Shown: in pieces, positions 440 to 64,000 of the stretch
Numbering within the stretch: the stretch's first letter is position 1
Layout: each line of letters starts with the position of its first letter
NCBI GenBank assembly: GCA_000002445.1
Contig: CH464491.1
Span: 2,656,001 to 2,720,000 of the forward strand
Direction: 5' to 3'
From: Trypanosoma brucei
Taxonomy: Eukaryota
DNA: 64,000 nucleotides
The notes under the pieces: generated by a model
The model's database searches: none
What the model was told of the DNA's origin: nothing
Seen by the model: only the letters and a program-made list of their open reading frames with translations
Program-made: the position numbers and the translations under genes

Positions 440-539
440 TACTATTTTTTTTTCCATACTTTTACCCTGACTATTCCTAACGACTGCTGTCGTTCCTGTG
501 CTTGAGCACTTGCTCTGTTTGTCTTTCCCATGTCCCAGA
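440..539 (+). promoter_or_regulatory. Polypyrimidine tract plus AG acceptor(s): candidate spliced-leader trans-splicing/polyadenylation signal region upstream of the 530..3127 gene
   Basis: ttctaacctactatttttttttccatacttttaccctgactattcctaacgactgctgtcgttcctgtgctt...ctgtttgtctttcccatgtcccagag. Confidence 0.45.
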
Positions 540-3127
540 GCCGTCATCTCAATAATTTTTTGTGCCTCAAAGGGAAGTTGTTAGAGGGCCGGTGTTTGTG
601 TGCGCGTGGGAATCCAGAGTGTGCCCTTTTTTCGTTAAGACGCTCCAAGCGCCTGACCACATCGTGCATTTGTGCGTGTGACGAGAGGTTTGCTTTGACT
701 GAGGCTGTGGCTGTGGAAATGTCCCTCAACCGCAAGTATAGCAGTGCGAAGGACCGTGGGCCCACTATTGTTATCCCTAACATACCAAAAATTACTGACA
801 TACGGTCTCGTGGGAAGCTTATGTGTGAGTATGAGAAATATGAAGCGGAGTTATTCAAGCACCACCTTGGCCCGCCGGACACAACGTGCACAATGAGCGT
901 CAAGCAGGCTCCTACGGATTTCGATAGACGCGTCCCGGGGATGGATGAGCCAACAGCAGCCGATCTCCTCCACGAAAGACGCAAGACTCGAGGTGGGGCC
1001 AGGTGGGGATTGGAGAAAAGATTTGGAGCACCCGTTTTCGCAGCAGGTGGCACTGGGGGAAACACTAGCACAAAGCAACAAGCTGCTGGTAGGCATGGGA
1101 GTGTGCCATACTCTGCAGCGGATGGAGGAAATAGTAGGGGGGCACTACCCGCGGTACCATCGGTGACACCCCTAGATGTTTCTACTAATAATCCTCCCAA
1201 TCAGCAGGGCACTGCTGGTAATAACCGAGATAATACGTCAACGTACTCACCATTGTCAATACGCGCGCCTGAAGAGGACCCTGAGGATGTGCTTTCTTCA
1301 TCAGCGAGAAGGAGGGGAACAAAAGGACAAAGGGTTTCGCTTCAGGTACCGCGGCGACCACCACAAGGTGCTGATCCTACGGTGAAAATCGAGGAAGCGG
1401 AGGGGAAGGAGCCTTTAGGCCGTACGCAAGAGGGGAAGTCCAAAGGGGGCCGGCGGTTTCGTAGTTTGCCGAGACGGGCACCGCTTCGTGTGCAGTCTCC
1501 TTTGTTTGATACAGAGTTTTTGGCTCCTGGAGGTTGTAATTGGACTGTGTGTACGGGACAGGACTACTCTTCGTGGAACGCTGAGCATTGCGCGGAGGTT
1601 TTACGTGTCCTCCTGAAACCCCCACCGGAGTATGGTGAATCCTTCAAAGTAGACATGAGCCACACAGACCTTCGCTGGATGTGGAACGGACGTATGCCCA
1701 AGAACTTCACATCATTGCAGTCATGGCGAGTAGAAGAAGTGAAGGGCAGAGTTGTTCCTGTTGTCAATTCACCGCGCTCCGCTCTTGTAATGCTGCGCTG
1801 TGGTATCACAGTTCCAGACTTGTTAGTTCACGAGATAGGGGATGACGCTCCACTTCTTCCAACGGACCCTGAGGACCGTACAATGGTGAAGAGTATTCGT
1901 ATGAAGCAACATAAAGCATCAGTTATATCAATCTTGGAGCAGGTGCGAAATGAGTACTGCTCGTTATGTTGCGCAGTAAGCCTCCCGGATCTAGTTGAGG
2001 CGTTTCGTAGGAAGCGGCAGGTCAATATTGAGGTGGCTAAGTCTGCAATGATACGGGATGCTCTGGAGAAGCAGAAGCGCTTGTTTGAGTGTGCCGAGAG
2101 GAAGTTAGAGGTTGAGGCTAACCGTGCAAAGAACTTACAAGAGCGGGAGCGATTGATAGAACTCCGGAACGAACGACTACAGGAAATGATGATGGAGAAG
2201 GTACGACGCAAGAGGGAAGAGGATCTCATCGCGCAGCAAAACGCTGCTGCTCGAATCAAGCTTCAGCAAGAACGTAATGCCGAACGGGAGAAGGAATATC
2301 AGCGGGAGTTGCAGGAACGGCTTGAACGCGCCGAGGAACGGACCGCCAGGCAGCAGGCTGCGCGGGACCACCTGTTGGAACAGCGTCGTATTCGGCGGAA
2401 GAAAAATGCTGAGGAGCGGCAGGCACGAATAGAACGTATGGCAGAGATGCAGGAGCAGCAAAGTGAAATACTCAGGCGGAAGTATGAGGAGAGGGATGCA
2501 AAAGTACAGCTTGTGCAAGAGGAACGAGAACGCAAACAACGGGAGGCACAAGAATTACTTGCCGCGAGGGCCGCCAAATCGCAAGAGTTGAGGGAGCAGG
2601 CGCGTCAGCGAGCCCTGCTGCGCGAAGAAGAGGTGCGCCAGGCCGCGCTTGGACAGCAACAAGAGGTGGAGAACCGTCTGCGGCAGCTCACTAAGCAACG
2701 GGAGGAGGAGGTTGCGGAGCGTGCGAAGAAAGAGGCCGAGAAGCGAGAGCGTTTGAAGGGCGTGCTTACGTTGACCGCAGAGAAGCAAATCAGTCTAAAG
2801 GAGGTATCTTTGAAGAAGCAGGAAAAATTCAAGGAACGCCATGATGAGATTCAGCGCCACCAGGCGGAAGAAATCATGCTTAAACGCGAGCGTGAGCGAG
2901 ATCTCATGGAGGCAAAAGCCTTTGCCGTGCTTCAAAAGAAACGTGTCGCTGAATTTAACAAAGTAGAGGTGGTATTGCAACTAATTGCTAAGCGTGAGGC
3001 AACCGAAGCTCTCGAAACTCAGCGTGAGATGCTCCTCCGCGAGAACTTTAAGAATCATGCAACCTTGACACAACACAGGAAATCGTTGAAGGAGGATATT
3101 GCTAGAAAAAAGTCACTACAGGGATAA
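530..3127 (+). CDS. Hypothetical protein with very long E/R/K/Q-rich charged coiled-coil C-terminal half (trichohyalin/MAP7-like low complexity). The likely true start is the in-frame ATG at 719 (MSLNRKYSS..).
   Basis: 865-aa ORF. The polypyrimidine tract at about 440-536 ends in AG dinucleotides at 536-539, so the first in-frame downstream ATG is 719. Residues from about 500 onward are near-pure ER/EK/Q heptad-like repeats. The minus-strand 'ORFs' overlapping it are antisense shadows of this repetitive coding bias. Confidence 0.6.
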   Translation: MSQSRHLNNFLCLKGKLLEGRCLCARGNPECALFSLRRSKRLTTSCICACDERFALTEAVAVEMSLNRKYSSAKDRGPTIVIPNIPKITDIRSRGKLMCEYEKYEAELFKHHLGPPDTTCTMSVKQAPTDFDRRVPGMDEPTAADLLHERRKTRGGARWGLEKRFGAPVFAAGGTGGNTSTKQQAAGRHGSVPYSAADGGNSRGALPAVPSVTPLDVSTNNPPNQQGTAGNNRDNTSTYSPLSIRAPEEDPEDVLSSSARRRGTKGQRVSLQVPRRPPQGADPTVKIEEAEGKEPLGRTQEGKSKGGRRFRSLPRRAPLRVQSPLFDTEFLAPGGCNWTVCTGQDYSSWNAEHCAEVLRVLLKPPPEYGESFKVDMSHTDLRWMWNGRMPKNFTSLQSWRVEEVKGRVVPVVNSPRSALVMLRCGITVPDLLVHEIGDDAPLLPTDPEDRTMVKSIRMKQHKASVISILEQVRNEYCSLCCAVSLPDLVEAFRRKRQVNIEVAKSAMIRDALEKQKRLFECAERKLEVEANRAKNLQERERLIELRNERLQEMMMEKVRRKREEDLIAQQNAAARIKLQQERNAEREKEYQRELQERLERAEERTARQQAARDHLLEQRRIRRKKNAEERQARIERMAEMQEQQSEILRRKYEERDAKVQLVQEERERKQREAQELLAARAAKSQELREQARQRALLREEEVRQAALGQQQEVENRLRQLTKQREEEVAERAKKEAEKRERLKGVLTLTAEKQISLKEVSLKKQEKFKERHDEIQRHQAEEIMLKRERERDLMEAKAFAVLQKKRVAEFNKVEVVLQLIAKREATEALETQREMLLRENFKNHATLTQHRKSLKEDIARKKSLQG

Positions 3128-15118: not shown

Positions 15119-18100
15119 ATGGCACAAATGTTCCCCTCTGTGCCGGGGTATGACGGTCCGTTTAGTTTAAAGGACTTCTTGCATAACTATATCGGTTTGC
15201 AGCTGCGTTGGAGCACACCTCAGGAAAATTCCACCACTTTACCTCCCTCAAACTCGAACGTTGTCGTTGTGCCCCCGACGGGAAACTTTCATGTTGTAGT
15301 GTATGTTTCACGGTCCGCGCCTCCACCCCAGCGGTCCGTACGTTCTGTCGCGGTACTGTCTTCGTGTAGTAATAAAATGGATGGAGACCATCCGCAGCCA
15401 TCGGTGCCAACACATTTTCATGGGAGGCCGCTAACTTCCTCAGTACTGAAGCACCCCTTTTGGGACGCTCTCTTCTCGCAGATTGGGCCAACAGCTGTCA
15501 GTTTCATCGTACTCTGGGCCCCTATAGTTGTGCAATTTGAGGCGTCTGGTGGTGGCCTACAGGTGTTGGGCCCCCCTCTGAAGCGTAGCGCCTCCTGCGC
15601 GGTGAAGCGTCAGCCAGGTGCTGGCTGGTGGGAGGGAAAATTAAAGGTGTCACGGACTGAAACACTAACGCAGAATGACCCTCACTGCTTCTGTATCGAG
15701 GGGACATCATCCCCTGTGGCATTGTATCGTTTAAATGTTCCTCGCCTGCATCTTGTTGAACAGTCACCCTTGAGGAGTACCGCGGATGCTCGCCATGCCG
15801 TTACTCTCATCCTGGAACAGTTGTGGATAGAGCATCACAAATCGAGCTGCTCTCCCTCGTCCGATAGGGACATTTCTCAGCGTCTCTGCGGCGTCGCCAC
15901 AGGTTCCGCCACGAATTGCTGCGGCGATAGTTGTGTTGTCTTGGCGCAGGCTAGAAATCAAGTTAATGCCGTTTTCCCGTACACTTTGTTGCCTGTTCAC
16001 GACGACGCTGTGTCTGGTAATGGAACCGTCAAGGAGTATCTCATCCATGTGCTGCACTGTGCGCTGGGGAGCGTGTGCCGTATGAACATACGCGGGGCTG
16101 CGATAAAACATACCGAATTCTTGGAAAAACGTGGCAAATCTGTTACCAGCATTTCTCAGAAGGCGCAGACCGCCGGGCAGGAGAATAAGATGCGCGCGAT
16201 TCCTGTTGGTGAGCTGACTGTGCCGGAGCCCGTTGTGGCTTCGTATCTGGAAACTCTCTTTAACATGATGTGGTGGCGTGTCCCTCCACGTTTTGTTGGC
16301 GGTGCGGTAACTGCCGATCGGGTTAAATTTTGGGGTGAAGAAGGAACTGTGCTGACAAGGTTGCGCGAGGTTACTGTGGATTGGTTGTGCTGCGGAAGAC
16401 ATGAGGTATTTCTTTTGAGTCATTTCTTGGATGGGGTGCCCGTTTCGAGGATTCCTTGGCTACGTGGTTTCTACACGAAGGAGCCTGCACGAAAGCGGCG
16501 GTCCATGATTCAGCAGCGAGTGTTCCTGCAGCTTGTGCTCTTCCTCTATCAATGCGTGGTACCATTTTTGATCCGTCGTTCGTTCCATGTTGCTTGTACC
16601 TCTAAAAGCCCGTATATATTTTTTTTCATACCAAGGGCTGTTTGGGTACGCCTCACTCGTCGTGAAATGCGACGTGTGTGCATTCGTCGCGTAAAAAGAA
16701 TGCGCTCCGATACTTTATCAGACCCACAAATGAGGGGGCACGCGGGGTTACCGCCAATGGCGCTGGAGCGTGTGACTTCCGAAGGACTGATGCAACTGAT
16801 AGGACCCTCGTCACAGCCGGTAGGTGATGACAGTGGCGGCGTAAGCGATGTTTGCAAACTCCGTGACAGTTCCTCACCACTTTTATATTCGGATGTCCGT
16901 TTTTTAGTTGATGGTAGTAAACTGCGGCCCATCGCCCGTCCTCGGTTTGGCTGGCAGCGCTCGCTTTTGAAAGCTGCCGACGGGGTTGGGTCGTCAACGC
17001 TTGCTTCAGCCCTTGCAAAGGCGGGGAAGTATTTGGCAACGGATGGTAAAGCCATGTGGCCGTCCCCTAACTCTGCTGTTTTACGGGATGCTTTGCGGTG
17101 CCTTGATGCGGGGGTGGAGGAGCGACGTATTACAACAGGGGCAAGGCAACGCGCCATTGGATCTCACAATGATGAATATATTGAAGTGCGGTCATTTATT
17201 CAATGCGCAAGGCAGTTTTGTACCATACCCACGTTGGTACAGGGTGAAACATCAGCGGCGCTGTTGGCGGATGCTACTGCCGTAACAATGGTGCGTGGCG
17301 ACGCCGCGCGGTGTTACGACCATTTACCGCAGGAGGCAGTAGTGAATATCATGCGGGGTCTCGTCACGCACGAGACTTATTACTCACTTAAGCTGACCGT
17401 TGTTACGCTGACTACGGTCAAAAATGTTAGCAAAAAGACTAGAAGTAGTCATGCAGAAAGTCAATTATCGTCGATGAAGGAGACGAATGGTTCGACTGTC
17501 AAGCACCGGAAGCTACAGTTGAGCAAACGTGTCAAACTTGTACCCGGGAGGTACGTACAAGAAGGCGTTCTCTATGGTATTGCTCGAGGATGCATTGCTT
17601 ATGAGGAACAGTCGGTAGGCTCCGATTCCTTGGTAAGCGGCGAGGAGATAAGAAGTGTGCTGCAGAAACATCTGCAGTCGCACCTCGTGATGCTGAACGG
17701 CAAGATGTACATACAGCGTATGGGTATAAATCAAGGATCTGCTGTGGCGATGTTGCTTTGTGATCAACTTCTCGAGCGAGTTGATGCGGCCCTTTCCAGT
17801 ATTCTCTCTGAACACGAGGAACCAGCGCTGTTGCTGCGTCGCGTGGATGATGTACTGGTGGTAACACTCTCTCGTGCTGCAGCGTCACGGTGCGAAGACG
17901 CTTTACGCAGTGGTTGGTCCGAAATTGGTTTCTTCTGCCAGGAGGAGAAATTGAGAAGAGTGACTTGTGGCCAACCCGTACGCTGGTGTGGGCTCCTTTG
18001 GGATCCGGTAACCTTGGAGTTTGCAGTGGACTGGGCGCGGCTGGCCAAGATGATGCCATATCTCGCCGTGCGTCCCAGGACAGGGTGTGAGCCACTACTT

Positions 18101-18697
18101 TCCTCACTACGTTTTATCAGGATACTTCGACTTCGAACGCCGATGACGGCACTCTGCCGACAAATAAACAGTAAGTCCCGTGTGGTGCAGACGTTATACG
18201 AGATCGGTCTGCTCTGGTCCCGCTTCTTCTTGGACAAACTGAAGGCCAACGCTGCCTTTTTTAGGCCGCATGTGCGCACTATATTACAACCTCTTGCCCT
18301 TGCGACTGCTACGCTGCGTCGCCTGGTGCGGAAACATTCCTTTGACCTGCAGCGGCTGGGTTCTTTTTGCGACGTTACTGATGTTGAAGTACGACTTTGT
18401 ATTTCCGCCGCGCTCTACCATACACTCCATCAGCGGCTGGCGTTCATGATCGGCAGGATGTCGAGCGTGGGGAAGAAAAAGTTCCTGATATTAATGACGG
18501 CGGTTTTAAAACGAAAAATGGGAGAACTGGGATCTAGGATCAACAGGAATAATCAAATGGAATCTTCTCTTCCCTCTGCAGCTGATTTGTTGCTGGTGGA
18601 GGGCGGTGATGGCGTAGTTTCAAGGGGTCTTGCGGCAGTGCGTTTCAGACCTGTCGAAACTGTGCGGTTTCAGGGATGTGCGACGCGCTCTGCATGA
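15119..18697 (+). CDS. TERT: Telomerase reverse transcriptase (TERT)
   Basis: 1192-aa ORF with the RT motifs in canonical order. Motif A is AARCYDHLPQEAVVNIM (cf. GAYDTIPQDRL). Motif B' is MGINQGSAVAMLLCDQLL (QGS...S..LC). Motif C is LLLRRVDDVLVVT (LLRLVDDFLLIT). Motif E is RWCGLLWD. The size matches the roughly 1190-aa kinetoplastid TERT. Confidence 0.85.
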   Translation: MAQMFPSVPGYDGPFSLKDFLHNYIGLQLRWSTPQENSTTLPPSNSNVVVVPPTGNFHVVVYVSRSAPPPQRSVRSVAVLSSCSNKMDGDHPQPSVPTHFHGRPLTSSVLKHPFWDALFSQIGPTAVSFIVLWAPIVVQFEASGGGLQVLGPPLKRSASCAVKRQPGAGWWEGKLKVSRTETLTQNDPHCFCIEGTSSPVALYRLNVPRLHLVEQSPLRSTADARHAVTLILEQLWIEHHKSSCSPSSDRDISQRLCGVATGSATNCCGDSCVVLAQARNQVNAVFPYTLLPVHDDAVSGNGTVKEYLIHVLHCALGSVCRMNIRGAAIKHTEFLEKRGKSVTSISQKAQTAGQENKMRAIPVGELTVPEPVVASYLETLFNMMWWRVPPRFVGGAVTADRVKFWGEEGTVLTRLREVTVDWLCCGRHEVFLLSHFLDGVPVSRIPWLRGFYTKEPARKRRSMIQQRVFLQLVLFLYQCVVPFLIRRSFHVACTSKSPYIFFFIPRAVWVRLTRREMRRVCIRRVKRMRSDTLSDPQMRGHAGLPPMALERVTSEGLMQLIGPSSQPVGDDSGGVSDVCKLRDSSSPLLYSDVRFLVDGSKLRPIARPRFGWQRSLLKAADGVGSSTLASALAKAGKYLATDGKAMWPSPNSAVLRDALRCLDAGVEERRITTGARQRAIGSHNDEYIEVRSFIQCARQFCTIPTLVQGETSAALLADATAVTMVRGDAARCYDHLPQEAVVNIMRGLVTHETYYSLKLTVVTLTTVKNVSKKTRSSHAESQLSSMKETNGSTVKHRKLQLSKRVKLVPGRYVQEGVLYGIARGCIAYEEQSVGSDSLVSGEEIRSVLQKHLQSHLVMLNGKMYIQRMGINQGSAVAMLLCDQLLERVDAALSSILSEHEEPALLLRRVDDVLVVTLSRAAASRCEDALRSGWSEIGFFCQEEKLRRVTCGQPVRWCGLLWDPVTLEFAVDWARLAKMMPYLAVRPRTGCEPLLSSLRFIRILRLRTPMTALCRQINSKSRVVQTLYEIGLLWSRFFLDKLKANAAFFRPHVRTILQPLALATATLRRLVRKHSFDLQRLGSFCDVTDVEVRLCISAALYHTLHQRLAFMIGRMSSVGKKKFLILMTAVLKRKMGELGSRINRNNQMESSLPSAADLLLVEGGDGVVSRGLAAVRFRPVETVRFQGCATRSA

Positions 18698-25595: not shown

Positions 25596-26771
25596 ATGTT
25601 TACCCGCCCACTCTTCAATTTTTCACCACGCCATCTGTGCCTCTTTTTAAGTGCTCACAGTTCCCCTCCAAGTCTTCGCGAACCAATGAGTCTTCGCGAG
25701 GACTGGGGTCGTCTTGTGGACGAGGTATGTAACATGGATAGCACTGAACCGCTCCCAGAAGAGTTTGTTCCCTCAGAATTCCTCCCTGGGGGTTGCGAAC
25801 TCCCTGCTGACTTGTTGCACTACCTCCGGAGCGGAGCAAATGCTTTTGAGGCTGAAACTGCTGATCTTTTTCAGCCGCAAACTTCCACTGAGGAGGGGTT
25901 TCACGCTGCACCCATTGTCAGTCGTTACGGCACGGCGGGAACCCTACGCAACCTAGTTGGTGATCGAGGCGAGAACCCGCGACTACCGAGGCACGAGGGA
26001 CCGAACTTTTACGAGGCCTATCGCGCTCACGCCGCCTTGAACGGCGAGGGAGGCGGAAGGAACAACCTCACTTCCTCTGCTTCTGCCGCTGCGGCGGCAG
26101 GAAGTGCGGGGGCTAACAATATTCTTCGTTCAATTGGGAATGGGATTCGTATCAATCCTGGATTCATGGTGCCGGAGTATCATTCGCAGAGGAACCGGAA
26201 ACTTAACTTTGTCCCCCTGATTCTCATTTCGCCTTCTGTTTCTTCTGTACTTCAGGTGATCAACATCAAAGATTTCTTGGAGGATGGTGTTTACGTTGAG
26301 CCGTCCTCACGGTTCTTGAACCCCGTAACGGGCGACATGAACGTTGAAGACGCGCCGAAGCACATCACTGTCAAACCGGGAAGCTTCCTAGATGCGGACA
26401 AGTACCGTGTAGCGTACAGAGAGTTTCGTGTTGTGAATGGACCAAAACAGGTAAAGAACTGGAACCATGTCTGTGCGTGCATCGTAGACGGCAATGAGTG
26501 GCAATTTAACCGTTGGTTTCCAGACGAAGTTCCTTCCTTGTGTGTGAGCCGACTTTTTCAGCGTGTGTGTGGTTTTTTACCTTACTTTGAGGAGGATAAA
26601 CCACCCAAGGCCCTTCAGGAGTGGCATGTTACTCCGTTGAAGTTGACACGCCGCGTTGTGAAGTCGCACACTCACATTCGCCAGGCGTCTGCCTTTTGGG
26701 AGCACTTGTACCTGTTTCTGGACACACATCCCCTCTTTAAGTTGTTCACCGTCCCGCCGGACCAGCCGTAG
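25596..26771 (+). CDS. CDC73: CDC73/parafibromin homolog (PAF1 complex subunit). The probable start is the in-frame ATG at 25686 (MSLREDWGRL..).
   Basis: The C-terminal domain NWNHVCACIVDGNEWQFNRWFPDEV......QEWHVTPLKL....SHTHIRQASAFWEHLYLFLD matches the Cdc73 C-terminal Ras-like domain signature (W.rVvAvfV.G..WQFKgWP ....W.V..L.l.......FW..L..y). AG acceptors at about 25650-25680 lie downstream of the first ATG, which favours the 25686 start. Confidence 0.55.
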   Translation: MFTRPLFNFSPRHLCLFLSAHSSPPSLREPMSLREDWGRLVDEVCNMDSTEPLPEEFVPSEFLPGGCELPADLLHYLRSGANAFEAETADLFQPQTSTEEGFHAAPIVSRYGTAGTLRNLVGDRGENPRLPRHEGPNFYEAYRAHAALNGEGGGRNNLTSSASAAAAAGSAGANNILRSIGNGIRINPGFMVPEYHSQRNRKLNFVPLILISPSVSSVLQVINIKDFLEDGVYVEPSSRFLNPVTGDMNVEDAPKHITVKPGSFLDADKYRVAYREFRVVNGPKQVKNWNHVCACIVDGNEWQFNRWFPDEVPSLCVSRLFQRVCGFLPYFEEDKPPKALQEWHVTPLKLTRRVVKSHTHIRQASAFWEHLYLFLDTHPLFKLFTVPPDQP

Positions 26772-35316: not shown

Positions 35317-38300
35317 ATGACCTCTCGCATTGAGAAGAGTGTTCGTGGTAAAGGAGCGGTGAAACTACGAGGGTTCCTGAAATCGAAGGAACAACTTTTT
35401 GCTACCAAACTGAGTAGCCCCCGCGTCGAATGCAGGGCAGGAAATGAGGAAAAGGGCGCTATGGGAGAAAAAGATGTGACTGGTGGGAGGCACGTGCACG
35501 GTGTTGTTGCGCCTCATCGCACTCTCGATACTGGCACCGCGTCCGTCCCTCTCCCAGCTAACCTCCCACCCGATGGTAAGGGAAAGAAGCTGCTGAATCC
35601 TCTGCGGAAGAAGTTACTGAGAGACCTTTCTGCTGACGAGGGCGGCTCGTTGCAGCATCTGCCGGCGAAACCCACTGGGCACAAGGAACTGGGTGCAATA
35701 AGAATCGCTACTGCAGACGTGTTCCCCGCTGGTGAGGCGCCTCACCGTCCTGCTGCACTATCGTCAGCTGTGTTATCCTCGCCCATGCAGGGTTTGAAGA
35801 CAGCTGCAGGTAAGTTGAACCCACCGGTAGGTATAGGACGCAAGAAGCGCCAACAGAAGTTGCAAAAGGCACAACTCGCGTCTACCGTTCGAGTAGAACG
35901 ACTCAGGAGTGACGGCACTTCCAGATGCGGGAAGAAAGGTAGCGTCAAGGTTCCCTCCGAGTGCTCCAGTCTTAATTCTAGCATCACATGTACAGTTAAC
36001 ACAAATGATTGCGCGGAACTGGACAGAGAGAGTGGTGTAGACGACATCGACGATCCAAACGATGACAACGCACAAGAACTATCTGCTAATGAGTTAGGTG
36101 ACGAGCTAGCGCCTTATGATGAGGTGGATGAAGAGGAGGCAGTGCAGCGGTACATGGGAAGCCACAGAGCCTCAACTTCGCCGAAAAAGACGGAGGACAG
36201 CGTCTCACTCAATCGGTGCCTCAGCGATCCATCGCTGTCAAACACATTGTGTGACGCACGTGCTGCACCGCTGGATCGTCCCAACAGCGCAATCGGAAGT
36301 TGTGCTGCTCCAGAAGATTTGCAACGGTCACTCGATGAAAAAATGGAAGAAAGTTCCCGGCGGCCATCCACTGCCGGTCAGCTGGGGGAGGGCACCAGTA
36401 GTTTCGGCACGCAAAAGGCTTCAGAACTCTTCAATGACAGCCTTTGCCGCTCCCTGAGTTTGTATGACGCGTTTTTCCTCAATGAAGACGGGACTACTTG
36501 GCTTGTTGATGACCGTGTTCTCGCTAGATGCCTAAATTATATCGGGCTTATGGATTACGAGCACGAGCTCCACGGACTGCGGCGCACTACAGGGAACAAC
36601 TTGAGTGCTTCTGCATGGGCGCAGCTTTCGTCCCCTGTGAAACGCAATGTGATGCCATCGTCTGTGGCATCTGCGGCGCCGCCGCTTCGGTGCACTACTT
36701 CTCCCAACTTTGTGAACAGTAGCAATTCTTTTTCGGTGGGGCAGAGTAAGCTGTGCAAAGCTCCAGAGTCGCGAGGAGGCCGTCCTGATTTTCCTACCCT
36801 CTTCCTTGACATCGACGAGACAATGAGATGGCTCTCTGGACAGGAATATGTCATAGGAACCATCCTAGCATGTTGTACGCGCGACAGCGATGCCTCTGAA
36901 GACGGGAATGTTCAGCCGTACTTGTCCCCTGCAGTTCATCCCATAAAGCAAATTGCCACAATTGTACGGGAATGTTACCCCCATTGGGGTAGCACAGTCC
37001 GTTTTGCGGACGCATGGGAGAAGCAGGTTGTCCTTGTTCTTGGTACATCCTCACCATCGCATCAGTTACTGTTCCCGTTTCCGGAGGAGGGCATATTCTT
37101 CTCGTCCGACATGGAGGGTGGAAATATTGCTCGCGTGGAACGTATGCCCGAGTCAACACTACTGCATCTACAGCAATATCCACAGCAGCCGAATGGGATC
37201 GGCTTTTCATTGTGGATGGAACCTGAACCCGGATGCGGGCAAAGGTTGTGGTTTCGTTTTGCTTTCGCCGGCGTCAAACCTCATACGTCGGTGACTTTGC
37301 GATTAGTTAACATTCAACCCACCACAAAACTATATGGTCGGAATGGCATGCGACCTGTGTGGAGGGCAGGGAATTGCCTCCGGCAGTGGGTGCCAGTAGC
37401 GCAGTGCTCATATCGCACAACAAATGACGAGGCTGATGGGGAACTGACGTTTGTCATAACACCCCGTACAAATGATGTCATTCATGTGGCGTTCTGCGTT
37501 CCCTACACATATGCTGATTTACTCTGCCACATTACCCACTGGCATAACTTGGTTAAAAATAGTACGTGCGATATTTGGTTTGAAGAGCGTGTGTTGTGTT
37601 ACACGCAGGATGGTCGCAAACTGCACATGCTTATCATAACGAGTTCCTCTACGAAAACTAATCAGCGGCACCGGAGCAAGCGGAAAGTGGAAGGCAGCAA
37701 CAGCGCCAATAATGGAGCTTGCGGCCCTACAGCCTGCAATGCCAACTCCAATGGCGGTGGCGGTAACCCGTCTCGTAAGCCCATTGTTGGACCATACTCT
37801 CAGTTCGAGAAGGGTAAGAAGGTCGTGCTGGTGAGTGGCCGCGTGCATCCCGGGGAAACAACAGCATCCCATGGTGTTCATGGCGCAATTTCCTTCCTTC
37901 TTTCCCGCGACCCACTAGCGGCAAAGCTACGGGACAATTTTATCTTTTATATTGTACCTATGTTAAACCCCGACGGTGTCTCCAGGGGTCACACTCGGCT
38001 TGACCAGAACGGATTTAACCTTAATCGCTGTTATAACAGGCCGATTCCTCAGACACAACCCACTGTGAGCGCCCTCCGCAAGGTGTTCGACCATCTGCGC
38101 CAAGTGTTTGACGACCGCTTCTTCATGTATTTGGACTTTCATTCGCACGTTTCGCAGTCTAGCTGTTTCGCCTTCGGTAATTGCCTCCCGGCGACGGTGC
38201 AGCACTGGAATATGCTCTTTCCAAAGATCATCAGTTTACACGCGAAGGAGCTCTTTGGGTACTCGATCTGCCGATTCGGACGCGGCCACATGTTGAGTAA

Positions 38301-38895
38301 GGAGGGAAGTTCGCGCGTGCTTTTTGGCGCCGGCCTCATCCACTCCTACACCATTGAACTCACGTATTTCACAAACAACCGGCTGTACATTGACGGTCTG
38401 TTGGCTGGCGGCACGTCCAACATTATGGATGGAGAATCGTGGGAGGACCGATACACCCATACACAGATCGTGCCGCAGCGCAGCCCCGTCGCCCACAACG
38501 CCAGCACTGTTACACCCCTTAATGAACAGGGTACGGCAGTTGGAGCCGTCAAAAGTAGCAAGTGCGTCCGTAGCAACTCACAACAGAAGAGGCTAAAGAA
38601 GCGTGATGTCACCAAGATCCCCAGTGACTGTGGTAATGGCAAACCAGAACTGTTGAGGCAGATTAGGGTACCGTGCATTCTGGCGCAAAGCGCTGAAGTC
38701 GGTCGTTCGTGCATGCTTTCTTTGCTCGACTACTGCTCTGTCGATAACTACATATCACCACAGTTTGCAGCGTATGGAGGGATGGAGCGAATGCTGCGGG
38801 ATGTCAAACGCCACATGGGTTCACCGACCGCCGCGAAGCCGGGGTCATGCAGACTGCAGTTCATTTACAAGCAACAGCAACAACTGCAGCAATAA
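35317..38895 (+). CDS. Cytosolic carboxypeptidase (M14 family, CCP/Nna1-like; candidate tubulin deglutamylase) with roughly 800-aa N-terminal extension
   Basis: VLVSGRVHPGETTASHGVHGAISFLLSRDPLAAKLRDNFIFYIVPMLNPDGV closely matches the CCP catalytic core (V.lSARVHPGEtnaSw...G...yL.s..p.A..LRe..iFkIvPMLNPDGV). It includes the Zn-ligand HxxE and the downstream DFHSH. Confidence 0.8.
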   Translation: MTSRIEKSVRGKGAVKLRGFLKSKEQLFATKLSSPRVECRAGNEEKGAMGEKDVTGGRHVHGVVAPHRTLDTGTASVPLPANLPPDGKGKKLLNPLRKKLLRDLSADEGGSLQHLPAKPTGHKELGAIRIATADVFPAGEAPHRPAALSSAVLSSPMQGLKTAAGKLNPPVGIGRKKRQQKLQKAQLASTVRVERLRSDGTSRCGKKGSVKVPSECSSLNSSITCTVNTNDCAELDRESGVDDIDDPNDDNAQELSANELGDELAPYDEVDEEEAVQRYMGSHRASTSPKKTEDSVSLNRCLSDPSLSNTLCDARAAPLDRPNSAIGSCAAPEDLQRSLDEKMEESSRRPSTAGQLGEGTSSFGTQKASELFNDSLCRSLSLYDAFFLNEDGTTWLVDDRVLARCLNYIGLMDYEHELHGLRRTTGNNLSASAWAQLSSPVKRNVMPSSVASAAPPLRCTTSPNFVNSSNSFSVGQSKLCKAPESRGGRPDFPTLFLDIDETMRWLSGQEYVIGTILACCTRDSDASEDGNVQPYLSPAVHPIKQIATIVRECYPHWGSTVRFADAWEKQVVLVLGTSSPSHQLLFPFPEEGIFFSSDMEGGNIARVERMPESTLLHLQQYPQQPNGIGFSLWMEPEPGCGQRLWFRFAFAGVKPHTSVTLRLVNIQPTTKLYGRNGMRPVWRAGNCLRQWVPVAQCSYRTTNDEADGELTFVITPRTNDVIHVAFCVPYTYADLLCHITHWHNLVKNSTCDIWFEERVLCYTQDGRKLHMLIITSSSTKTNQRHRSKRKVEGSNSANNGACGPTACNANSNGGGGNPSRKPIVGPYSQFEKGKKVVLVSGRVHPGETTASHGVHGAISFLLSRDPLAAKLRDNFIFYIVPMLNPDGVSRGHTRLDQNGFNLNRCYNRPIPQTQPTVSALRKVFDHLRQVFDDRFFMYLDFHSHVSQSSCFAFGNCLPATVQHWNMLFPKIISLHAKELFGYSICRFGRGHMLSKEGSSRVLFGAGLIHSYTIELTYFTNNRLYIDGLLAGGTSNIMDGESWEDRYTHTQIVPQRSPVAHNASTVTPLNEQGTAVGAVKSSKCVRSNSQQKRLKKRDVTKIPSDCGNGKPELLRQIRVPCILAQSAEVGRSCMLSLLDYCSVDNYISPQFAAYGGMERMLRDVKRHMGSPTAAKPGSCRLQFIYKQQQQLQQ

Positions 38896-46712: not shown

Positions 46713-46761
46713 AACCATGCATTATACATGACCATACCCCATATATACACAATTGTAAAGC

Positions 46762-46828: not shown

Positions 46829-46859
46829 TCATTTCGACTATGGACCATATGGTTGTAGC

Positions 46860-47681: not shown

Positions 47682-47764
47682 CGTTGAATGATGACTGACA
47701 AAACATCACAGACTTTGATGACCCCATGAACAAGAAAAATTGTCGCCCCAGACTGATTTTCACT
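47682..47764 (+). ncRNA. C/D-box snoRNA candidate (copy 2 of the 46860-46942 element, with one SNP upstream of the C box)
   Basis: Same C (47689-47694), C' and D boxes, displaced by exactly 822 bp. Confidence 0.6.
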
Positions 47765-49700: not shown

Positions 49701-50954
49701 TTTGTTTTAAAAGCGGTGAAAGGGGGAGGGGTCGCCGCGGAAATAATACTAAGGGCGGGACCTTTTCTGTTTTCCTTCTTTTTTCCTTACTTGGGTGTGC
49801 GTCAGATGAAATAAGGAAAAAAAACTGAAGGAGAAGGACGGTCAGGTCGGTGTCGTTCAGCTTTGCGCGAAGGCTTGTGCCGGCAGTTTATGTCTCTAAG
49901 ACTCAGGTGATGTGTTTTCCTGCATCTCTCACCCAAAGCACACACACACTTACGTGCGCATGGTTTTCCTCTCTTTATGTCTCTATTTGTTTGCGTCCCC
50001 TTTAGTGGTGTAAAAAGCGAGGAGATCCTTCGGCTCTCATCCTTTTAGCTTCTTTCTCCCCTTCGTTTTGTTTCTTTCTTTAATCCCTCGTTCACCTCTT
50101 TGCTTATTCAAGGTATTTTTGTGGGGGTTACCGTTTTCAGCTAAGACAGATAAGTGTATTTTCGTTAGTGTCTTTTTTTTTTTTTGCAAGCCACTGCATA
50201 GTAAGCCCTTTTGTTGTTTTTAAATCTCCCCACTCAAGGCCCTCATGAACAATCCCACCGGTGAGTGTACTCATTTAGTCTCGTGCGTGGACCTAGGAGC
50301 GCCAAGATTTCATTCACTTGAGATAGGGGTGACAGCCAGAGGCAGGAAAAAAATACAGCAACAACGAAAGTTGTGGAAGTGTGGACGTGATGAAGAAAAA
50401 TTATTTACTTCTGTTTGGAGAGGGTTCAGGAACACTCTCCATGACGTTACCATAATTAATCCATTCTCTGATCACGTTCAGTCGCTTCTTCTTTCCTCCC
50501 CCTTTCCGCGTCCCCTGTGTTAGTTACAACATTTAACGTGATGAAAAACCTTTCATGCTGTGTGACGTACTCCCTTATGAGGGCAGGCACAAGCTGCTTG
50601 CGGCCTAGTGTCATGCAATTGATTATAGACGGCATTCTGAAAAAGTAACTTACTCTCTCTCCCCTCCTTTTGTTTACCTCCTCTCTCTCTCTGTGTGTGT
50701 GTGTGTGTGTCTGACCTCTTTTTTTTTTCTGTTCTGAGAGTGTATCTGTTTGCCTCCACCATAACGGGTACTACACATAACAACTACTTTGACAAACAAA
50801 GTTTGATTTACCTATCTTATTTATCTTGTTTCACATGGCACTGCGCATCATTTTATCTGCATTCGAAGAATCTGTATTATGTGCTCTCTCGCTTCTACTT
50901 TTCACGCCTCTCGTTCCTGTTTCTATTTCATTCACATATTTATCTTGAAGAAAG

Positions 50955-60036: not shown

Positions 60037-61191
60037 ATGACTGAGCTATTAAGTGCAGGGGAAGTGCAACATCCATGTGGCTGGGCGTTTGCATTTCCCT
60101 TCGTGAAGCGGGTGCCCCCTGCAAAACTGGTTCGTTTGCTCGGAACAGCGACACTGTTGGATCGCATTCGTGAAAACGACCCAACGCTTCGGTCCGTTCG
60201 ATTAGACTATGAACTGCTACCACGAGAGGAAATAATGCAGGCATTGCTGGGAAACAACACAATCTCCAGCGTTGTAATTGCGCGTGTCATACCCAGGAAT
60301 TCGACAGGAACTGATTTTGCTCGCTTTCTTGAGAGTTTGTATCACCTCCCGCTGCGCAGCGTGCAAGTACAAGATGGAGAGAAGCTCCCGAGTTCATATT
60401 TGAATCACTTGCTTTACCTCGTGGAATACTGTTCTGGTGTGGGAAAGGCCTGCAAATGGACTGACGGTAAATGTTATGCTGGAGCCGACTTAAACACTGG
60501 GAATACGACCACTGAGATAAATGATGCCGAAGAGTTCAATGGGAATAACAGCCGAGAAGATGTTGACTCGGAAGTACTGGATTACAAGAGGGGCGCCGTG
60601 CTGGAATTCGTCGACTTCTCGGGGTGTCGGCTAACGGTGCGGCAGGCGCAGTGGCTTGGGGATATTTTGTTTCATCGTCGCTGCACGCTGAGGCATGTGA
60701 ATGCGTGCGAGTGTCGCCTGGGAAATGGGGGCGTGCGGGCGCTCCTTCGACGCGTAAACACGAGCCCACGATTGAAAGCCGCGAGCATTGCGGAGGGGTC
60801 AGTAGTGCCACTAGACATGATAGAGTTGCGTTGGAATGGCGTTACAGAGGATGAAAGCATACGAAATTTCGTCGATGTGGTGGAGAGGAGTCCTGACTGC
60901 TGGACTTGCATGACAGTTTATGGGAATTACATTTCTCCCCACATGTACACAAGGTGCGAGGCTCAGGTGGTCAAGGCCAAACGTCTCATGGAAGAGGAGC
61001 GCTTAAAAAGAAGGGAAATTCCCACAAATGTGGAGGTGGCCCAGCCGGACGGTCGGTTGTCTTCAGAAAAGGGAACATCCTGTTCTCCTCGACGGTATTT
61101 TGTAGATCTTCTCACATCAGTGGCGGGCGAAGTGGACTTCGTTTGCCCATCCCTACGTGCTGTTTCTTCGCTTTTGCACGAAGAACCCTGA
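60037..61191 (+). CDS. Hypothetical protein (384 aa) with Cys-containing leucine-rich (RNI-like) repeats
   Basis: ..LEFVDFSGCRLTVRQAQWLGDILFHRRCTLRHVNACECRLGNGGVRALLRRV.. has LRR/ribonuclease-inhibitor-like periodicity. Same-strand ORF. Confidence 0.4.
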   Translation: MTELLSAGEVQHPCGWAFAFPFVKRVPPAKLVRLLGTATLLDRIRENDPTLRSVRLDYELLPREEIMQALLGNNTISSVVIARVIPRNSTGTDFARFLESLYHLPLRSVQVQDGEKLPSSYLNHLLYLVEYCSGVGKACKWTDGKCYAGADLNTGNTTTEINDAEEFNGNNSREDVDSEVLDYKRGAVLEFVDFSGCRLTVRQAQWLGDILFHRRCTLRHVNACECRLGNGGVRALLRRVNTSPRLKAASIAEGSVVPLDMIELRWNGVTEDESIRNFVDVVERSPDCWTCMTVYGNYISPHMYTRCEAQVVKAKRLMEEERLKRREIPTNVEVAQPDGRLSSEKGTSCSPRRYFVDLLTSVAGEVDFVCPSLRAVSSLLHEEP

Positions 61192-62096
61192 GTTTGCGTG
61201 GTTGTGTGTGCTTTTTTTCGGACACGTGTGCCGTTTTACGGGGGCTTCCCCTTTCGTTTGTTTTCATGATGTGGACGTTTCCTTCTCCCATTAATGACTT
61301 CCTTTTTCTTCCTTTTTACCCTTAACACCACGAAAACATTATTACAAGTGTTGTTGTTCACACGATTTCACGCTCACATCATGTGGAGGATTTGATTAAA
61401 TTGTGCAGGTTTTTCGGACAAGTCAGTGAAACAAGTAATTTAGCTCCCTTCTCGCTCTCTCTTTCCCTCTTCTTCATTACATGTGGATGGTGAAACGGTG
61501 AAAGAAGAGGAAGAACAAAGGCATGGAGGTAAGGGGGAAAAGAATTAGGAAAGAAGAGGCGGAAGCATAAGTGAAAGGAGGAAGGAAATGAGGGATGTTG
61601 AGACATTAGCACAATGCACGGGGAAGTTCATGTGTGCGAAGGTTGGACTCCTTTTCTTTTTTTTTCCTTCAGAGGAGGGAATATCTTGCTTCACATAACC
61701 ATCGAAGCATCCTCTCTCTTCCCCTCTACTGTGCCTTTTGTGGTTTCTTGGTGTTGGTGTGTTGCTTTGTTTTTTTTTTTTGCCTTTCCTTTACGCGGCG
61801 CTGTATAGCTGGTAATTACATGTGTAGTAGACTACCGGGTGATGAGAAGGGAATGCGTGTACTGTACAACTTTAATTACGTATTTGTGTATGTTTACACG
61901 TGCACGCGGATACATTTTTATTTTATGCTTTTTTTTTCCTTCCCTTTTCATCCCTTCTCATCTGTGCGTCCCATGACGCGTACCAAAACTACATATGTGG
62001 TACATATGATGGACGGATTGGGAGAAGAAAATTCGGTGTGTTTTGTTACGGTGTTTTTCCCCCTTTTTTTATTTTTATTTTTTCATGGAAGGGAGT

Positions 62097-64000
62097 ATGA
62101 GTGGGAAGGGCTTTGTATCAACCCGACTGCTGCAAGCGGTACCTGCGGGGGGTGCAGTCCCAGCACCAAGATCCATTCCGTCCTTCAAACCGGTTCCGTT
62201 CAAGCGAGAAAAGTTTCTCTCTATAAAAACTCGAACTGCCGAAACGTTCTTCGGTACGCGCGACCGACTATTCCGGCGCTCTACCGCTATTGTTGAGCAG
62301 ATGAGTGATATGAGAAGGAAAGAAAACCTATCATCTTCCGTGAGTGGTAGTGGTGGAAATGTCCTCAATGGTTGTGAAGGAATATACATTGGGGCTCCCC
62401 TTACACCACAAATGACGGATGAGATTAACGCGTGGAACAGAAATCTTCAAGGTCTTGAGGGGATGCAAGGATTTGTTCTCACTGACGAGTTAGTGTACGA
62501 GGCTGTCTCTAGGAACATTCGCATGGGTGCATTCCCGCATGCGCTGAATTGGTTGGAAAAGGCTGCGCGCGAAAAGCGGCTTCCCGTGCCAACTTTAGTG
62601 CTGAAGGACCTGCGCATGTTCTTTGATTTTGTGCTTTCTGTGCTCCCCGCGAGCAACGCAACCTTCTCAACTGCAGTCGACATGCTGCTCGAGGAAACGG
62701 CTTCGACTATGTTGCCTGAAGTATCGACCGATGGGTCGCGTGGCGGGGAAAATGAAGATGAAGTCACTTGCGGTGAGGTGTGCGAAAACTCGCCAATACG
62801 ACTTGCAAGCACTTCACCTTTCGCACTCCACATTTTCAGAGAATTATTCGCGCCCGTCTGGGGTTGCCTGCTGCGTCTTGGTCTGCTTCCTACGGTTGCG
62901 TCTGCGCAAAAGGAGTGGGATCGTTTGCAGGGAAACAAGGTCTCTGACGGTGTATTGTCAGGTTTGATTGAGCGTATAGACTTTGATGGGTGCGCACCCT
63001 CCAACAGAGAGAGTAGTGGCACTAACGTGGGAAAGGTGCCTGCGGCACGGCAAGCGTATATGGAACTCCTTCTATCTCTTGCACAATGCGCTGCCGAGGC
63101 GAAAGAGGTATATGTCCTTTTACACCTTCAATCTACCTTCTGTGCATTATTTGCTGAACCAAGGGATGAGGGCCGCTCTCACCCCTCGGTTTCTTCTGAC
63201 GATTCCCGCCTTCAGCGTTGGAGGTTGCGACGGAATGTTTGGTGCAATTCGGATGATGGCAGGGAATACTTTCACCGCTTTGCGAACGATTTCCTTTCTT
63301 CTGTATATTATGGCCGCCAGCTCTACCAAAGCGAAGTCTCGCTAAATAATTGTGTTCGACATTTGTCCAGTACCGTGCCCGGGGTGCAAGGAACAGAAGA
63401 GCTGGGAGATATGCGGAACGATGGACGGGATGTTGGAGGTGCCGACGATGAACAACGGCAGCCAAACAATCCGGATGCTGACGAAGATGGCAAGTCAAGG
63501 TTGTTTACGGTGGAGGAGGCCGTGGAAAATGTATTGTGGGAGGTGATGAGCCATGAGGCGTCACTGTTCCCCGATGCACTCGCATACGCCGGACTTCTGC
63601 TTCGACGTACTGTGACTGATACAACTCTTCCTACTTCCGCAACAAACCCTCGCTTCAGTCGGGCGGAGCTTGAGTGGATGCAGCTTCATAGTGACATGTG
63701 CCGTCGCTCCCACGGTGGTGAGGACGTGACAGCCGAGTTACTGAATCTCATTCGCCCAGGTTCCACGGTAACACGAGGACTGGCACTGAATGCTACATGT
63801 CTCGAGGATAAACAGTGTCTTCTGGGACTGGTGGTTGAGACAGTTATTACGATTGCTGGGGTGTCGAGGCTAGCGGGCCCTCAACGAGGTGACCTGATTA
63901 TTAAGGCTACCACGCAGTTGCTTCTGTGTATGAGGGAGGTTGAATGTCAGGGAGGACAGCGGTTGATGCTCCCTCAGTACAGTGTAGGATGCGTAATGGT
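62097..64000 (+). CDS. Hypothetical protein, 5' part (open to the window end, at least 634 codons). Alternative start at 62301.
   Basis: Manual translation of frame 0 (62097 ≡ 0 mod 3) is stop-free from the TGA at 62007-62009 to position 64000. ATGs occur at 62085, 62097 and 62301. A T-rich polypyrimidine tract at 62010-62084 followed by AG at 62090-62095 favours 62097. It is absent from the supplied ORF track because there is no in-window stop. Confidence 0.5.
   Translation, partial: MSGKGFVSTRLLQAVPAGGAVPAPRSIPSFKPVPFKREKFLSIKTRTAETFFGTRDRLFRRSTAIVEQMSDMRRKENLSSSVSGSGGNVLNGCEGIYIGAPLTPQMTDEINAWNRNLQGLEGMQGFVLTDELVYEAVSRNIRMGAFPHALNWLEKAAREKRLPVPTLVLKDLRMFFDFVLSVLPASNATFSTAVDMLLEETASTMLPEVSTDGSRGGENEDEVTCGEVCENSPIRLASTSPFALHIFRELFAPVWGCLLRLGLLPTVASAQKEWDRLQGNKVSDGVLSGLIERIDFDGCAPSNRESSGTNVGKVPAARQAYMELLLSLAQCAAEAKEVYVLLHLQSTFCALFAEPRDEGRSHPSVSSDDSRLQRWRLRRNVWCNSDDGREYFHRFANDFLSSVYYGRQLYQSEVSLNNCVRHLSSTVPGVQGTEELGDMRNDGRDVGGADDEQRQPNNPDADEDGKSRLFTVEEAVENVLWEVMSHEASLFPDALAYAGLLLRRTVTDTTLPTSATNPRFSRAELEWMQLHSDMCRRSHGGEDVTAELLNLIRPGSTVTRGLALNATCLEDKQCLLGLVVETVITIAGVSRLAGPQRGDLIIKATTQLLLCMREVECQGGQRLMLPQYSVGCVM

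What the first reader, a model, noticed from the sequence alone, without database searches (positions are those of the whole stretch)
62007..64000. Long open reading frame at the window's 3' edge that the ORF track omits
Frame 0 is open from the TGA at 62007-62009 to the last base of the window (over 630 codons from the ATG at 62097; also ATGs at 62085 and 62301). It is preceded by a T-rich polypyrimidine tract and AG. The track instead reports a low-complexity 220-aa ORF (61634..62296, frame 2) that runs through the poly-T tract and is almost certainly spurious. Anyone relying on the track would miss a real gene and annotate a false one.
Basis: seen in the sequence. Interest (0 to 1): 0.5.

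Follow-up and report, generated by a model that had tools for sequence, protein, structure and literature searches.

The report
Known trypanosome gene cut by window edge
The long open frame at the window's 3' edge is a real but already catalogued Trypanosoma brucei gene (Tb927.11.10390, a probable mitochondrial protein of unknown function) that the ORF list drops only because it runs off the window, so the finding is correct but ordinary.

Summary
After the TGA at 62007-62009 the frame has no stop for 663 codons, to base 64000 (chance about 2.5e-15). The window is T. brucei TREU927 chromosome 11 (v4 2,656,001-2,720,000). The frame encodes residues 1-638 of the 774-aa 'hypothetical protein, conserved' XP_829103.1 / Q383P0 = Tb11.01.2160 = Tb927.11.10390, at 100% identity. 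A near-identical genomic contig shows the ORF closing at TAG 136 codons past the window.

Kolev et al. 2010 map the 5'-most SL site to window 62092, right after the AG at 62090/91.

The 220-aa ORF (61634..62296) is spurious. It crosses the upstream gene's poly(A) site (61984) and this acceptor, is Phe/Cys-rich, and has no homologue.

The protein is an all-alpha solenoid found only in trypanosomatids and a few unnamed relatives, with no Pfam domain. It was detected in purified mitochondria and fell 4.6-fold on ATOM40 knockdown (Peikert et al. 2017). Its molecular function is unknown. Nothing here is new, so interest is low.

The parts
61192..61984 (+). 3' UTR of the upstream gene Tb927.11.10380 / Tb11.01.2150 (CDS 60037..61191); poly(A) site at 61984
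   Evidence: Kolev 2010 Table S13 gives the Tb11.01.2150 PAS at 2717984 and a 3'UTR of 793 nt. The offset of 2,656,000 is fixed by five matching coordinates.
61985..62091 (+). 107-nt inter-mRNA spacer between the upstream poly(A) site and the splice acceptor
   Evidence: The PAS-to-SAS distance of 108 nt compares with a published median of 142 nt.
62007..62009 (+). In-frame TGA that closes the frame upstream
62054..62084 (+). Polypyrimidine tract (31 nt, two single-A interruptions) that directs trans-splicing
   Evidence: It starts 38 nt before the splice junction; the published median is 43 nt, with a median tract length of 18 nt.
62085..62087 (+). ATG used as the start in GenBank, UniProt and TriTrypDB 8.1 (774-aa model); it lies upstream of the mapped SL site, so it is not in the mature mRNA
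   Evidence: P0001 begins MEGSMSGKG. The 86.03 kDa mass equals the 774-aa model. The gene is listed in Kolev 2010 Table S1, 'misannotated start codon'.
62090..62091 (+). AG trans-splice acceptor; the first AG after the pyrimidine tract, with A (not G) at position -3
   Evidence: Transcript 5' end 2718092 = window 62092.
62092..62096 (+). Genome-encoded 5' UTR (GGAGT); 44 nt once the 39-nt spliced leader is added
62097..64000 (+). CDS of Tb927.11.10390 from the first AUG of the mRNA: codons 1-634 of 770, plus 2 nt; it continues 136 codons beyond the window to a TAG
   Evidence: The start is aligned with the annotated starts of T. congolense, T. grayi and T. rangeli.
61634..62296 (+). Spurious 220-aa ORF reported by the ORF lister: 351 nt in the upstream 3'UTR, 107 nt in the spacer, and 205 nt overlapping the real mRNA out of frame
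   Evidence: It starts at GTG, has flat GC123 of 0.43/0.43/0.47, Phe 12.3% vs 3.8%, Cys 6.4% vs 2.0%, and Asp+Glu 4.6% vs 11.4%. It has no homologue in 5.8e9 clusters.

Best explanation
Window 62092-64000 is the 5' four-fifths of the mRNA of Tb927.11.10390 (Tb11.01.2160; Q383P0). This is one more gene in the same-strand RNA polymerase II polycistron that fills the window.

How the mRNA is made (shown by published mapping): the pre-mRNA is cut out by coupled processing. The upstream mRNA (Tb927.11.10380) is polyadenylated at 61984. The 31-nt pyrimidine tract 62054-62084 directs addition of the 39-nt spliced leader at the first downstream AG (62090/91). The mature mRNA therefore starts at 62092. 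The database start ATG 62085 is excluded, and translation starts at ATG 62097, 5 nt into the exon. That gives a 770-aa protein whose last 136 codons lie beyond the window.

Why the track is wrong: the ORF list omits this frame only because it runs off the window end. The 220-aa ORF it shows instead is a chance open frame through T-rich UTR and spacer.

What the protein is: an all-alpha solenoid found only in trypanosomatids and a few unnamed relatives. It has a basic N-terminus that is acid-free once the start is corrected, followed by an invariant F-K-P-V-P-F-K..K-F-L-S motif and a conserved C-terminal ARDxG..C.LLR..RE.LF end. Shown by published work: it was detected in purified mitochondria and was depleted when the import pore ATOM40 was knocked down. 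Inferred: it is imported into the mitochondrion and acts as a non-catalytic scaffold or adaptor, most plausibly in organellar gene expression (RNA processing or ribosome assembly), where most kinetoplastid-specific helical-repeat proteins act.

Approximate confidence in each step: gene identity and reality 0.99; acceptor at 62090/91 and start at 62097 0.85; mitochondrial location 0.75; role in gene expression 0.3.
For: Identity: 100% over 638 aa to XP_829103.1 / Q383P0. The ID mapping Tb927.11.10390 = Tb11.01.2160 = Q383P0 is printed in Peikert 2017 Data 1. Window coordinates are fixed by Kolev Table S1/S13 entries that match five window ORF ends.

Coding: no stop in 663 codons, and gene-like GC1>GC3>GC2. 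There are 29 family representatives among 1.84e9 proteins, in T. congolense, T. vivax, T. cruzi, T. grayi, T. rangeli, T. melophagium, Phytomonas and Novymonas. Synteny with the upstream LRR gene is conserved. The ORF closes at TAG on L001.

Processing: transcript 5' end 2718092 and 3' end 2720541, with the gene listed among ORFs with a 'misannotated start codon'. The geometry is typical of T. brucei acceptors. Orthologues start at the residue aligned with M5, and the same layout of pyrimidine tract, AG and short spacer recurs in T. grayi and the T. cruzi clade.

Against: The SL mapping comes from one life stage (procyclic) of another strain (T. b. rhodesiense YTat1.1), and only the 5'-most site could be read. 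The tables listing all sites are truncated in the held copy, so minor or downstream sites (AG 62094/95, 62100/01) are unknown.

TargetP and MitoFates did not predict a presequence, although both were run on the MEGS-extended model. The same candidate list contains evident non-mitochondrial proteins such as nucleoside transporters, so ATOM40 dependence is not proof of location. No microscopy localisation was found in the TrypTag supplements as held.

Confidence: 0.88

Rival explanations
1. The database model is right. Translation starts at ATG 62085 (774 aa) because some mRNAs are spliced at an upstream acceptor (AG 62023/24 or 62026/27, downstream of the pyrimidine tract 61928-61959), perhaps in bloodstream forms.
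For: Those AGs and that tract exist, and no ATG in any frame lies between them and 62085. Alternative trans-splicing is common in T. brucei, as the Nilsson 2010 title and abstract state. GenBank, UniProt and TriTrypDB 8.1 all keep the 774-aa model.
Against: Kolev's table reports the 5'-most SL site, and that site is 62092. The upstream poly(A) site at 61984 is only about 40 nt from those AGs. The MEGS residues are absent from every orthologue. They also put an acidic residue at position 2 of an otherwise acid-free N-terminus.
Confidence: 0.08
2. The protein starts further downstream, at ATG 62301 (Met-69 of the 770-aa form), because the main acceptor lies inside the first codons (for example AG 62100/01).
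For: AG dinucleotides occur at 62094/95, 62100/01 and 62107/08. T. cruzi and T. vivax gene models also start at internal Mets.
Against: This would delete the most conserved block of the family (P32-R65; invariant F34, P36, P38, F39, K43, F44, L45, S46), which is kept even in the most distant members. The mapped 5' end is upstream of 62097.
Confidence: 0.03
3. The 220-aa ORF (61634..62296) is a genuine small gene and the long frame overlaps it.
For: It is 220 codons without a stop.
Against: It starts at GTG, and its first in-frame ATG is at 61820. It spans a mapped poly(A) site and a mapped splice acceptor, so no single mature mRNA contains it. Its GC is flat across codon positions. Phe and Cys are each about three-fold enriched, as expected from reading poly-T. 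It has no homologue among 5.8e9 clusters. Its last 200 nt are out of frame with a conserved CDS.
Confidence: 0.01
4. The protein is real but not mitochondrial. Its loss after ATOM40 knockdown is indirect, or it is a contaminant of the mitochondrial fraction. One automated UniRef label calls the Novymonas orthologue a 'nuclear pore complex protein'.
For: There is no TargetP or MitoFates prediction. The candidate list contains plasma-membrane transporters. Alpha-solenoids are also typical of nucleoporins and karyopherins, which appear among the weak fold hits.
Against: 94.5% of non-mitochondrial reference proteins were unaffected in that experiment, and all 11 candidates tested by microscopy were mitochondrial. 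At log2 -2.2 the effect is far beyond the -0.62 cut-off. A basic N-terminus with few or no acidic residues is conserved across the family. Nothing seen here supports the UniRef label.
Confidence: 0.2

Closest known systems
Tb927.11.10390 (Tb11.01.2160; XP_829103.1; UniProt Q383P0), 'hypothetical protein, conserved', T. brucei TREU927 chromosome 11
   Same: It is this gene: 100% identity over all 638 residues encoded in the window, with identical genomic coordinates after the 2,656,000 offset.
   Different: The public model starts 4 codons too early (ATG 62085) according to SL mapping. The window lacks the last 136 codons.
The 532 T. brucei ORFs with the splice acceptor inside the annotated ORF (Kolev et al. 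2010, Table S1)
   Same: The gene is listed there. Two other genes of this window are too: Tb11.01.1880 (window 530) and Tb11.01.1990/CDC73 (window 25596).
   Different: This case is very mild. Only 4 codons are lost, and the pyrimidine tract abuts the false ATG.
Kinetoplastid mitochondrial helical-repeat proteins (KRIPP/PPR proteins of the mitoribosome, RESC subunits, mt-SSU/LSU assembly factors)
   Different: No PPR, HEAT or other Pfam repeat is detectable. It is absent by sequence from every solved T. brucei, Leishmania or T. cruzi complex in the PDB. Designed repeat proteins and karyopherins score as well or better.

Membership tests
Trans-spliced protein-coding gene of a kinetoplastid polycistronic unit | Same-strand tandem arrangement with neighbouring genes | tested here: met
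   Twenty-six of the 31 listed ORFs of at least 200 aa, including every one over 220 aa, are on the + strand, and many carry eukaryotic Pfam domains.
Trans-spliced protein-coding gene of a kinetoplastid polycistronic unit | Polypyrimidine tract followed by an AG acceptor upstream of the start codon, without G at -3 | tested here: met
   Tract 62054-62084, AG 62090/91, A at -3. The criteria are from Kolev 2010.
Trans-spliced protein-coding gene of a kinetoplastid polycistronic unit | Spliced-leader addition and polyadenylation mapped experimentally | not testable with these tools
   Not run here, but published: 5' end 2718092 (window 62092) and 3' end 2720541, in Kolev 2010 Table S1.
Trans-spliced protein-coding gene of a kinetoplastid polycistronic unit | Protein-level conservation and expression | tested here: met
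   Orthologues at 36-48% identity in other Trypanosoma species and 29 family representatives. MS detection is published.
Tb927.11.10390 orthologue group | Full-length collinear similarity, including the N-terminal FKPVPFK..KFLS block and the C-terminal ARDxG..C.LLR..RE.LF end | tested here: met
   Alignment A1 has 92 invariant columns across 7 sequences, and the window sequence is the T. brucei member itself.
Mitochondrial importome (ATOM40-dependent proteins) | Depletion from purified mitochondria on ATOM40 knockdown (log2 <= -0.62, p < 0.05) | not testable with these tools
   Published: log2 -2.20, p = 6.2e-4, n = 4.
Mitochondrial importome (ATOM40-dependent proteins) | Predicted N-terminal presequence | tested here: inconclusive
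   The TargetP and MitoFates columns are blank for the 774-aa model. The corrected N-terminus has 4 K/R and no D/E in 35 aa, and family members are similar. No predictor was available to re-run.
Mitochondrial importome (ATOM40-dependent proteins) | Microscopic co-localisation with a mitochondrial marker | not tested
   No entry was found in the TrypTag supplements as held.
Pentatricopeptide-repeat (PPR) proteins | Tandem 35-aa PPR motifs recognised by the Pfam PPR models | tested here: not met
   No Pfam family even at E<=1 for P0001, P0003 and P0007, and none at E<=0.01 in eight of nine distant members, the ninth having only a sub-threshold Receptor_IA-2 hit.
Pentatricopeptide-repeat (PPR) proteins | PPR-type superhelical fold | tested here: inconclusive
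HEAT/ARM-type alpha-solenoids | Recognisable HEAT/ARM repeats by profile | tested here: not met
   No Pfam hit. The only similarity is generic alpha-solenoid structure.

The most novel reading that the evidence does not exclude
The Tb927.11.10390 family is an uncharacterised mitochondrial alpha-solenoid factor, restricted to trypanosomatids and a few unnamed relatives, that acts in organellar gene expression. Its T. cruzi-clade orthologues would initiate translation at a GUG codon 5 nt from the spliced-leader junction. In T. cruzi YC6 and T. c. marinkellei, GTG replaces the ATG of T. rangeli and T. brucei. In T. cruzi YC6 no in-frame ATG precedes the 45 codons that encode the family's invariant motif; T. 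c. marinkellei has two, but both lie upstream of the acceptor-like AG.
Probability: 0.25. Interest if true: 0.35.

Novelty: already known. Interest (0 to 1): 0.08.

Why it matters
For the scan, this is a calibration case with three lessons:
- ORF lists that drop frames open at a sequence end hide real genes at window edges.
- In T-rich kinetoplastid UTRs, such lists offer long chance ORFs instead.
- Bacterial start codons (GTG/TTG) are meaningless in this eukaryote.

For trypanosome biology the value is small. It is a reminder that the public model of Tb927.11.10390 still begins 4 codons upstream of the mapped splice acceptor. That matters only for N-terminal tagging designs and for presequence prediction, because the extra MEGS adds an acidic residue. 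The protein remains one of many uncharacterised mitochondrial candidates.

Tried and rejected
- **Logan contig L001 as a spliced transcript.** I hoped it would carry the spliced leader. It is unspliced genomic sequence that starts inside the pyrimidine tract, so it was useful only for the downstream 136 codons.
- **Exact-sequence look-up of P0001.** Not on record.
- **Second word-indexed homology search with the alignment.** It added no new members. The exhaustive profile search was needed.
- **PDB sequence search.** No hits.
- **Pfam on the target, orthologues and distant members.** Nothing.
- **Literature.** No paper in the library mentions the gene ID or accessions in its main text.
- **Supplements with no entry as held:** Nilsson 2010, TrypTag, the T. 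brucei complex map and the 2026 kDNA screen.
- **Old-to-new ID offset.** A strict +8240 offset from TERT would have given Tb927.11.10400. I rejected this after Peikert's table printed the mapping explicitly.
- **Rfam and tRNA scans.** Nothing lies in 61192-64000.
Full report
**1. The observation**

Translating 62007-64000 gives a TGA followed by 663 codons with no stop, up to the last base of the window. From the window's base composition, a stop is expected about once every 20 codons. A run this long has probability about 2.5e-15, or about 1.6e-11 expected anywhere in the window. Over 62097-64000 the other five frames contain 11-37 stops. In-frame ATGs are at 62085, 62097, 62301 and 62310.

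GC content by codon position is 0.60/0.46/0.50, the same pattern as nine other large ORFs of the window. The part of the 220-aa ORF upstream of 62085 is 0.40/0.37/0.43.

The ORF lister reports 61634..62296 (220 aa, GTG start) and not the long frame. Its documentation states that ORFs running off either end are not listed. Among all frames open at the two window edges, this is the only long one; the rest are at most 69 codons.

**2. What it is**

The 638 residues from ATG 62085 are 100% identical to a 774-aa 'hypothetical protein, conserved' of *Trypanosoma brucei brucei* TREU927 (XP_829103.1, EAN79991.1, UniProt Q383P0). Near-identical 774-aa copies exist in *T. b. gambiense* and *T. equiperdum*.

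Kolev et al. 2010 (PMC2936537, Table S1) list Tb11.01.2160 on Tb927_11_01_v4 with ORF 2718085..2720409. That is 2,325 nt, or 774 codons plus a stop. The window is therefore chr11 v4 2,656,001-2,720,000. The same offset reproduces the ORF ends of Tb11.01.1880 (530..3127) and Tb11.01.1990 (25596..26771), and the stop codons of Tb11.01.2110 and Tb11.01.2150.

Peikert et al. 2017 (PMC5436138) print the mapping Tb927.11.10390 = Tb11.01.2160 = Q383P0, 86.03 kDa. That mass is exactly the 774-aa model; the 770-aa form would be 85.63 kDa.

A 2,438-nt Logan contig from another *T. brucei* isolate (L001; 11 mismatches in 1,938 nt) shows the ORF running 136 codons past the window to a TAG.

The surrounding window is a single same-strand gene array. 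It includes an enoyl-CoA hydratase-like protein, TERT, CDC73, HslV, a Rieske protein, a SNARE, an M14 peptidase, TatD, an RCC1 protein, a PGAM5-like protein, an IQ protein and a GH31 hydrolase.

**3. mRNA processing and the start codon**

The last pyrimidine tract (62054-62084, 31 nt) ends at the base before the annotated ATG 62085. The first AG after it is 62090/91, inside the annotated CDS.

[quoted passage not shown] For this gene the transcript 5' end is 2718092 (window 62092), the base after that AG. The 3' end is 2720541, which gives a 132-nt 3'UTR.

ATG 62085 is not in the mRNA, the genomic 5'UTR is GGAGT, and the first AUG is 62097 (MSGKG..., 770 aa).

The geometry is typical of *T. 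brucei* acceptors:

| Feature | Here | Published (Kolev 2010) |
|---|---|---|
| Tract start to splice junction | 38 nt | median 43 nt |
| Tract length | 31 nt | median 18 nt |
| Base at position -3 | A | G excluded |
| Upstream poly(A) site to acceptor | 108 nt | median 142 nt |

Independent support comes from the orthologues. The annotated *T. congolense*, *T. grayi* and *T. rangeli* proteins start at the residue aligned with M5. The Logan gene call is 770 aa. The four extra residues (MEGS) have no counterpart elsewhere.

There are caveats. The mapping is from procyclic *T. b. rhodesiense* YTat1.1, and the tables listing all sites are truncated in the held copy. Minor sites, such as the upstream AGs 62023/24 and 62026/27 or the downstream AGs 62094/95 and 62100/01, therefore cannot be excluded.

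**4. The 220-aa ORF is spurious**

- Table S13 of Kolev et al. places the poly(A) site of the upstream gene (Tb11.01.2150 = Tb927.11.10380, CDS 60037..61191) at window 61984, for a 793-nt 3'UTR.
- The 220-aa ORF therefore consists of 351 nt of that 3'UTR, the 107-nt spacer, and 205 nt of the target mRNA read out of frame. No mature mRNA contains all of it.
- It starts at GTG.
- It has 12.3% Phe and 6.4% Cys, against 3.8% and 2.0% in the window's genes. It has 4.6% Asp+Glu against 11.4%.
- It has no homologue among 5.8 billion protein clusters.

**5. The protein**

No Pfam family matches the *T. brucei* protein, its orthologues or distant members. No PDB chain is related by sequence.

An exhaustive profile search of 1.84 billion representatives finds only 29 members. 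Those that carry names are trypanosomatid: *T. cruzi*, *T. vivax*, *Phytomonas* and *Novymonas*. All are called hypothetical except for one automated UniRef label, 'Nuclear pore complex protein', on the *Novymonas* sequence.

The alignment shows two conserved ends:
- an N-terminal block with invariant P32, F34, P36, P38, F39, K43, F44, L45, S46, K48 and R50;
- a C-terminal ARDxG..C.LLR..RE.LF end.

Experimentally, Peikert et al. detected the protein with 3 peptides (3.7% coverage) in gradient-purified procyclic mitochondria. They found it reduced to 0.218 (log2 -2.20, n=4, p=6.2e-4) after ATOM40 knockdown and listed it among 331 'new mitochondrial candidate proteins'. In that study 94.5% of non-mitochondrial reference proteins were unaffected, and all 11 candidates tested by microscopy were mitochondrial.

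Family N-termini are basic with few or no acidic residues. However, TargetP and MitoFates gave no prediction on the MEGS-extended model, and the candidate list also contains nucleoside transporters.

I therefore consider a mitochondrial location likely (about 0.75). A scaffold role in organellar gene expression is plausible (about 0.3), but that is inference only.

**6. Comparison with what is known, and verdict**

The gene, its transcript ends, its inclusion among misannotated starts and its candidate mitochondrial location are all published. Nothing in 62007-64000 is new. The track's omission is a window-edge artefact. Novelty: already known. Interest: low.

**7. Side observations**

- Start-codon calls are unstable across this family. 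*T. vivax* has 758- and 796-aa models. The *T. cruzi* models start at an internal Met that cuts the invariant motif. The *T. c. marinkellei* model runs about 135 aa upstream through TG-repeat and poly-T sequence.
- In *T. cruzi* YC6 and *T. c. marinkellei*, the codon aligned with the ATG of *T. rangeli* and *T. brucei* is GTG, 5 nt after a poly-T/AG acceptor-like site.
- In *T. cruzi* YC6 there is no in-frame ATG between the upstream stop and codon +45. Yet those 45 codons encode the invariant motif, and they differ between the two taxa by 5 synonymous and 4 non-synonymous changes with no indels. This suggests GUG initiation there, or loss of the N-terminal block. I could not test either.

Noticed in passing
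L004 1000-1203 (T. cruzi YC6) and L003 1800-1990 (T. c. marinkellei): In the T. cruzi clade, the codon aligned with the start ATG of T. rangeli and T. brucei is GTG, 5 nt after a poly-T/AG acceptor-like site. T. cruzi YC6 has no in-frame ATG from the upstream stop until codon +45, yet those codons encode the family's invariant PSFKPVPFKQEKFLS motif (5 synonymous and 4 non-synonymous differences between the two taxa, no indels). This suggests non-AUG (GUG) initiation or loss of the N-terminal block.
   Followed up: partly
L003 1439-1846 (T. c. marinkellei protein P0005, residues 1-136): The 944-aa gene model carries a low-complexity N-terminal extension (HTHTHTHT, FFFVFLFLVYF). It arises from reading upstream through TG repeats and the pyrimidine tract, the same kind of artefact as the 220-aa ORF in the window.
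   Followed up: yes
window 530..3127 and 25596..26771: Two more genes of this window are in Kolev 2010 Table S1, with the splice acceptor inside the annotated ORF: Tb11.01.1880 = Tb927.11.10120 (transcript starts at window 539) and Tb11.01.1990, the CDC73 homologue (transcript starts at window 25635). Their database start codons are probably too far upstream as well.
   Followed up: partly
window 46614-48001 and 50236-50307, + strand: There is a snoRNA cluster in the gap between the RCC1-repeat gene and the PGAM5-like gene. It has two tandem copies (822-nt period) of TBR17, TB11Cs2H1, TBR7 and TBR5, plus a single TB11Cs3H1. All are far above the Rfam gathering scores. There are no tRNAs in the window.
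   Followed up: partly
window 4947, 6695, 12799, 21187, 40097, 42549, 48723, 50955 (listed ORF starts): The ORF lister uses bacterial start codons, so eight of the large + strand ORFs are listed as starting at GTG or TTG. In this eukaryote the first in-frame ATG lies 5-24 codons further in, so the listed starts and lengths are systematically too long.
   Followed up: yes
window 15119..18697 and 35317..38895: Two ORFs of exactly 1192 aa look like a duplication in the ORF table but are unrelated. One is TERT (Telomerase_RBD) and the other is an M14 zinc carboxypeptidase-domain protein.
   Followed up: yes
protein P0016 (Novymonas esmeraldas orthologue): UniRef names this orthologue 'Nuclear pore complex protein'. 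Nothing seen here supports that: there is no Pfam domain, and fold hits are only generic solenoids. It conflicts with the mitochondrial import data for the T. brucei protein.
   Followed up: partly
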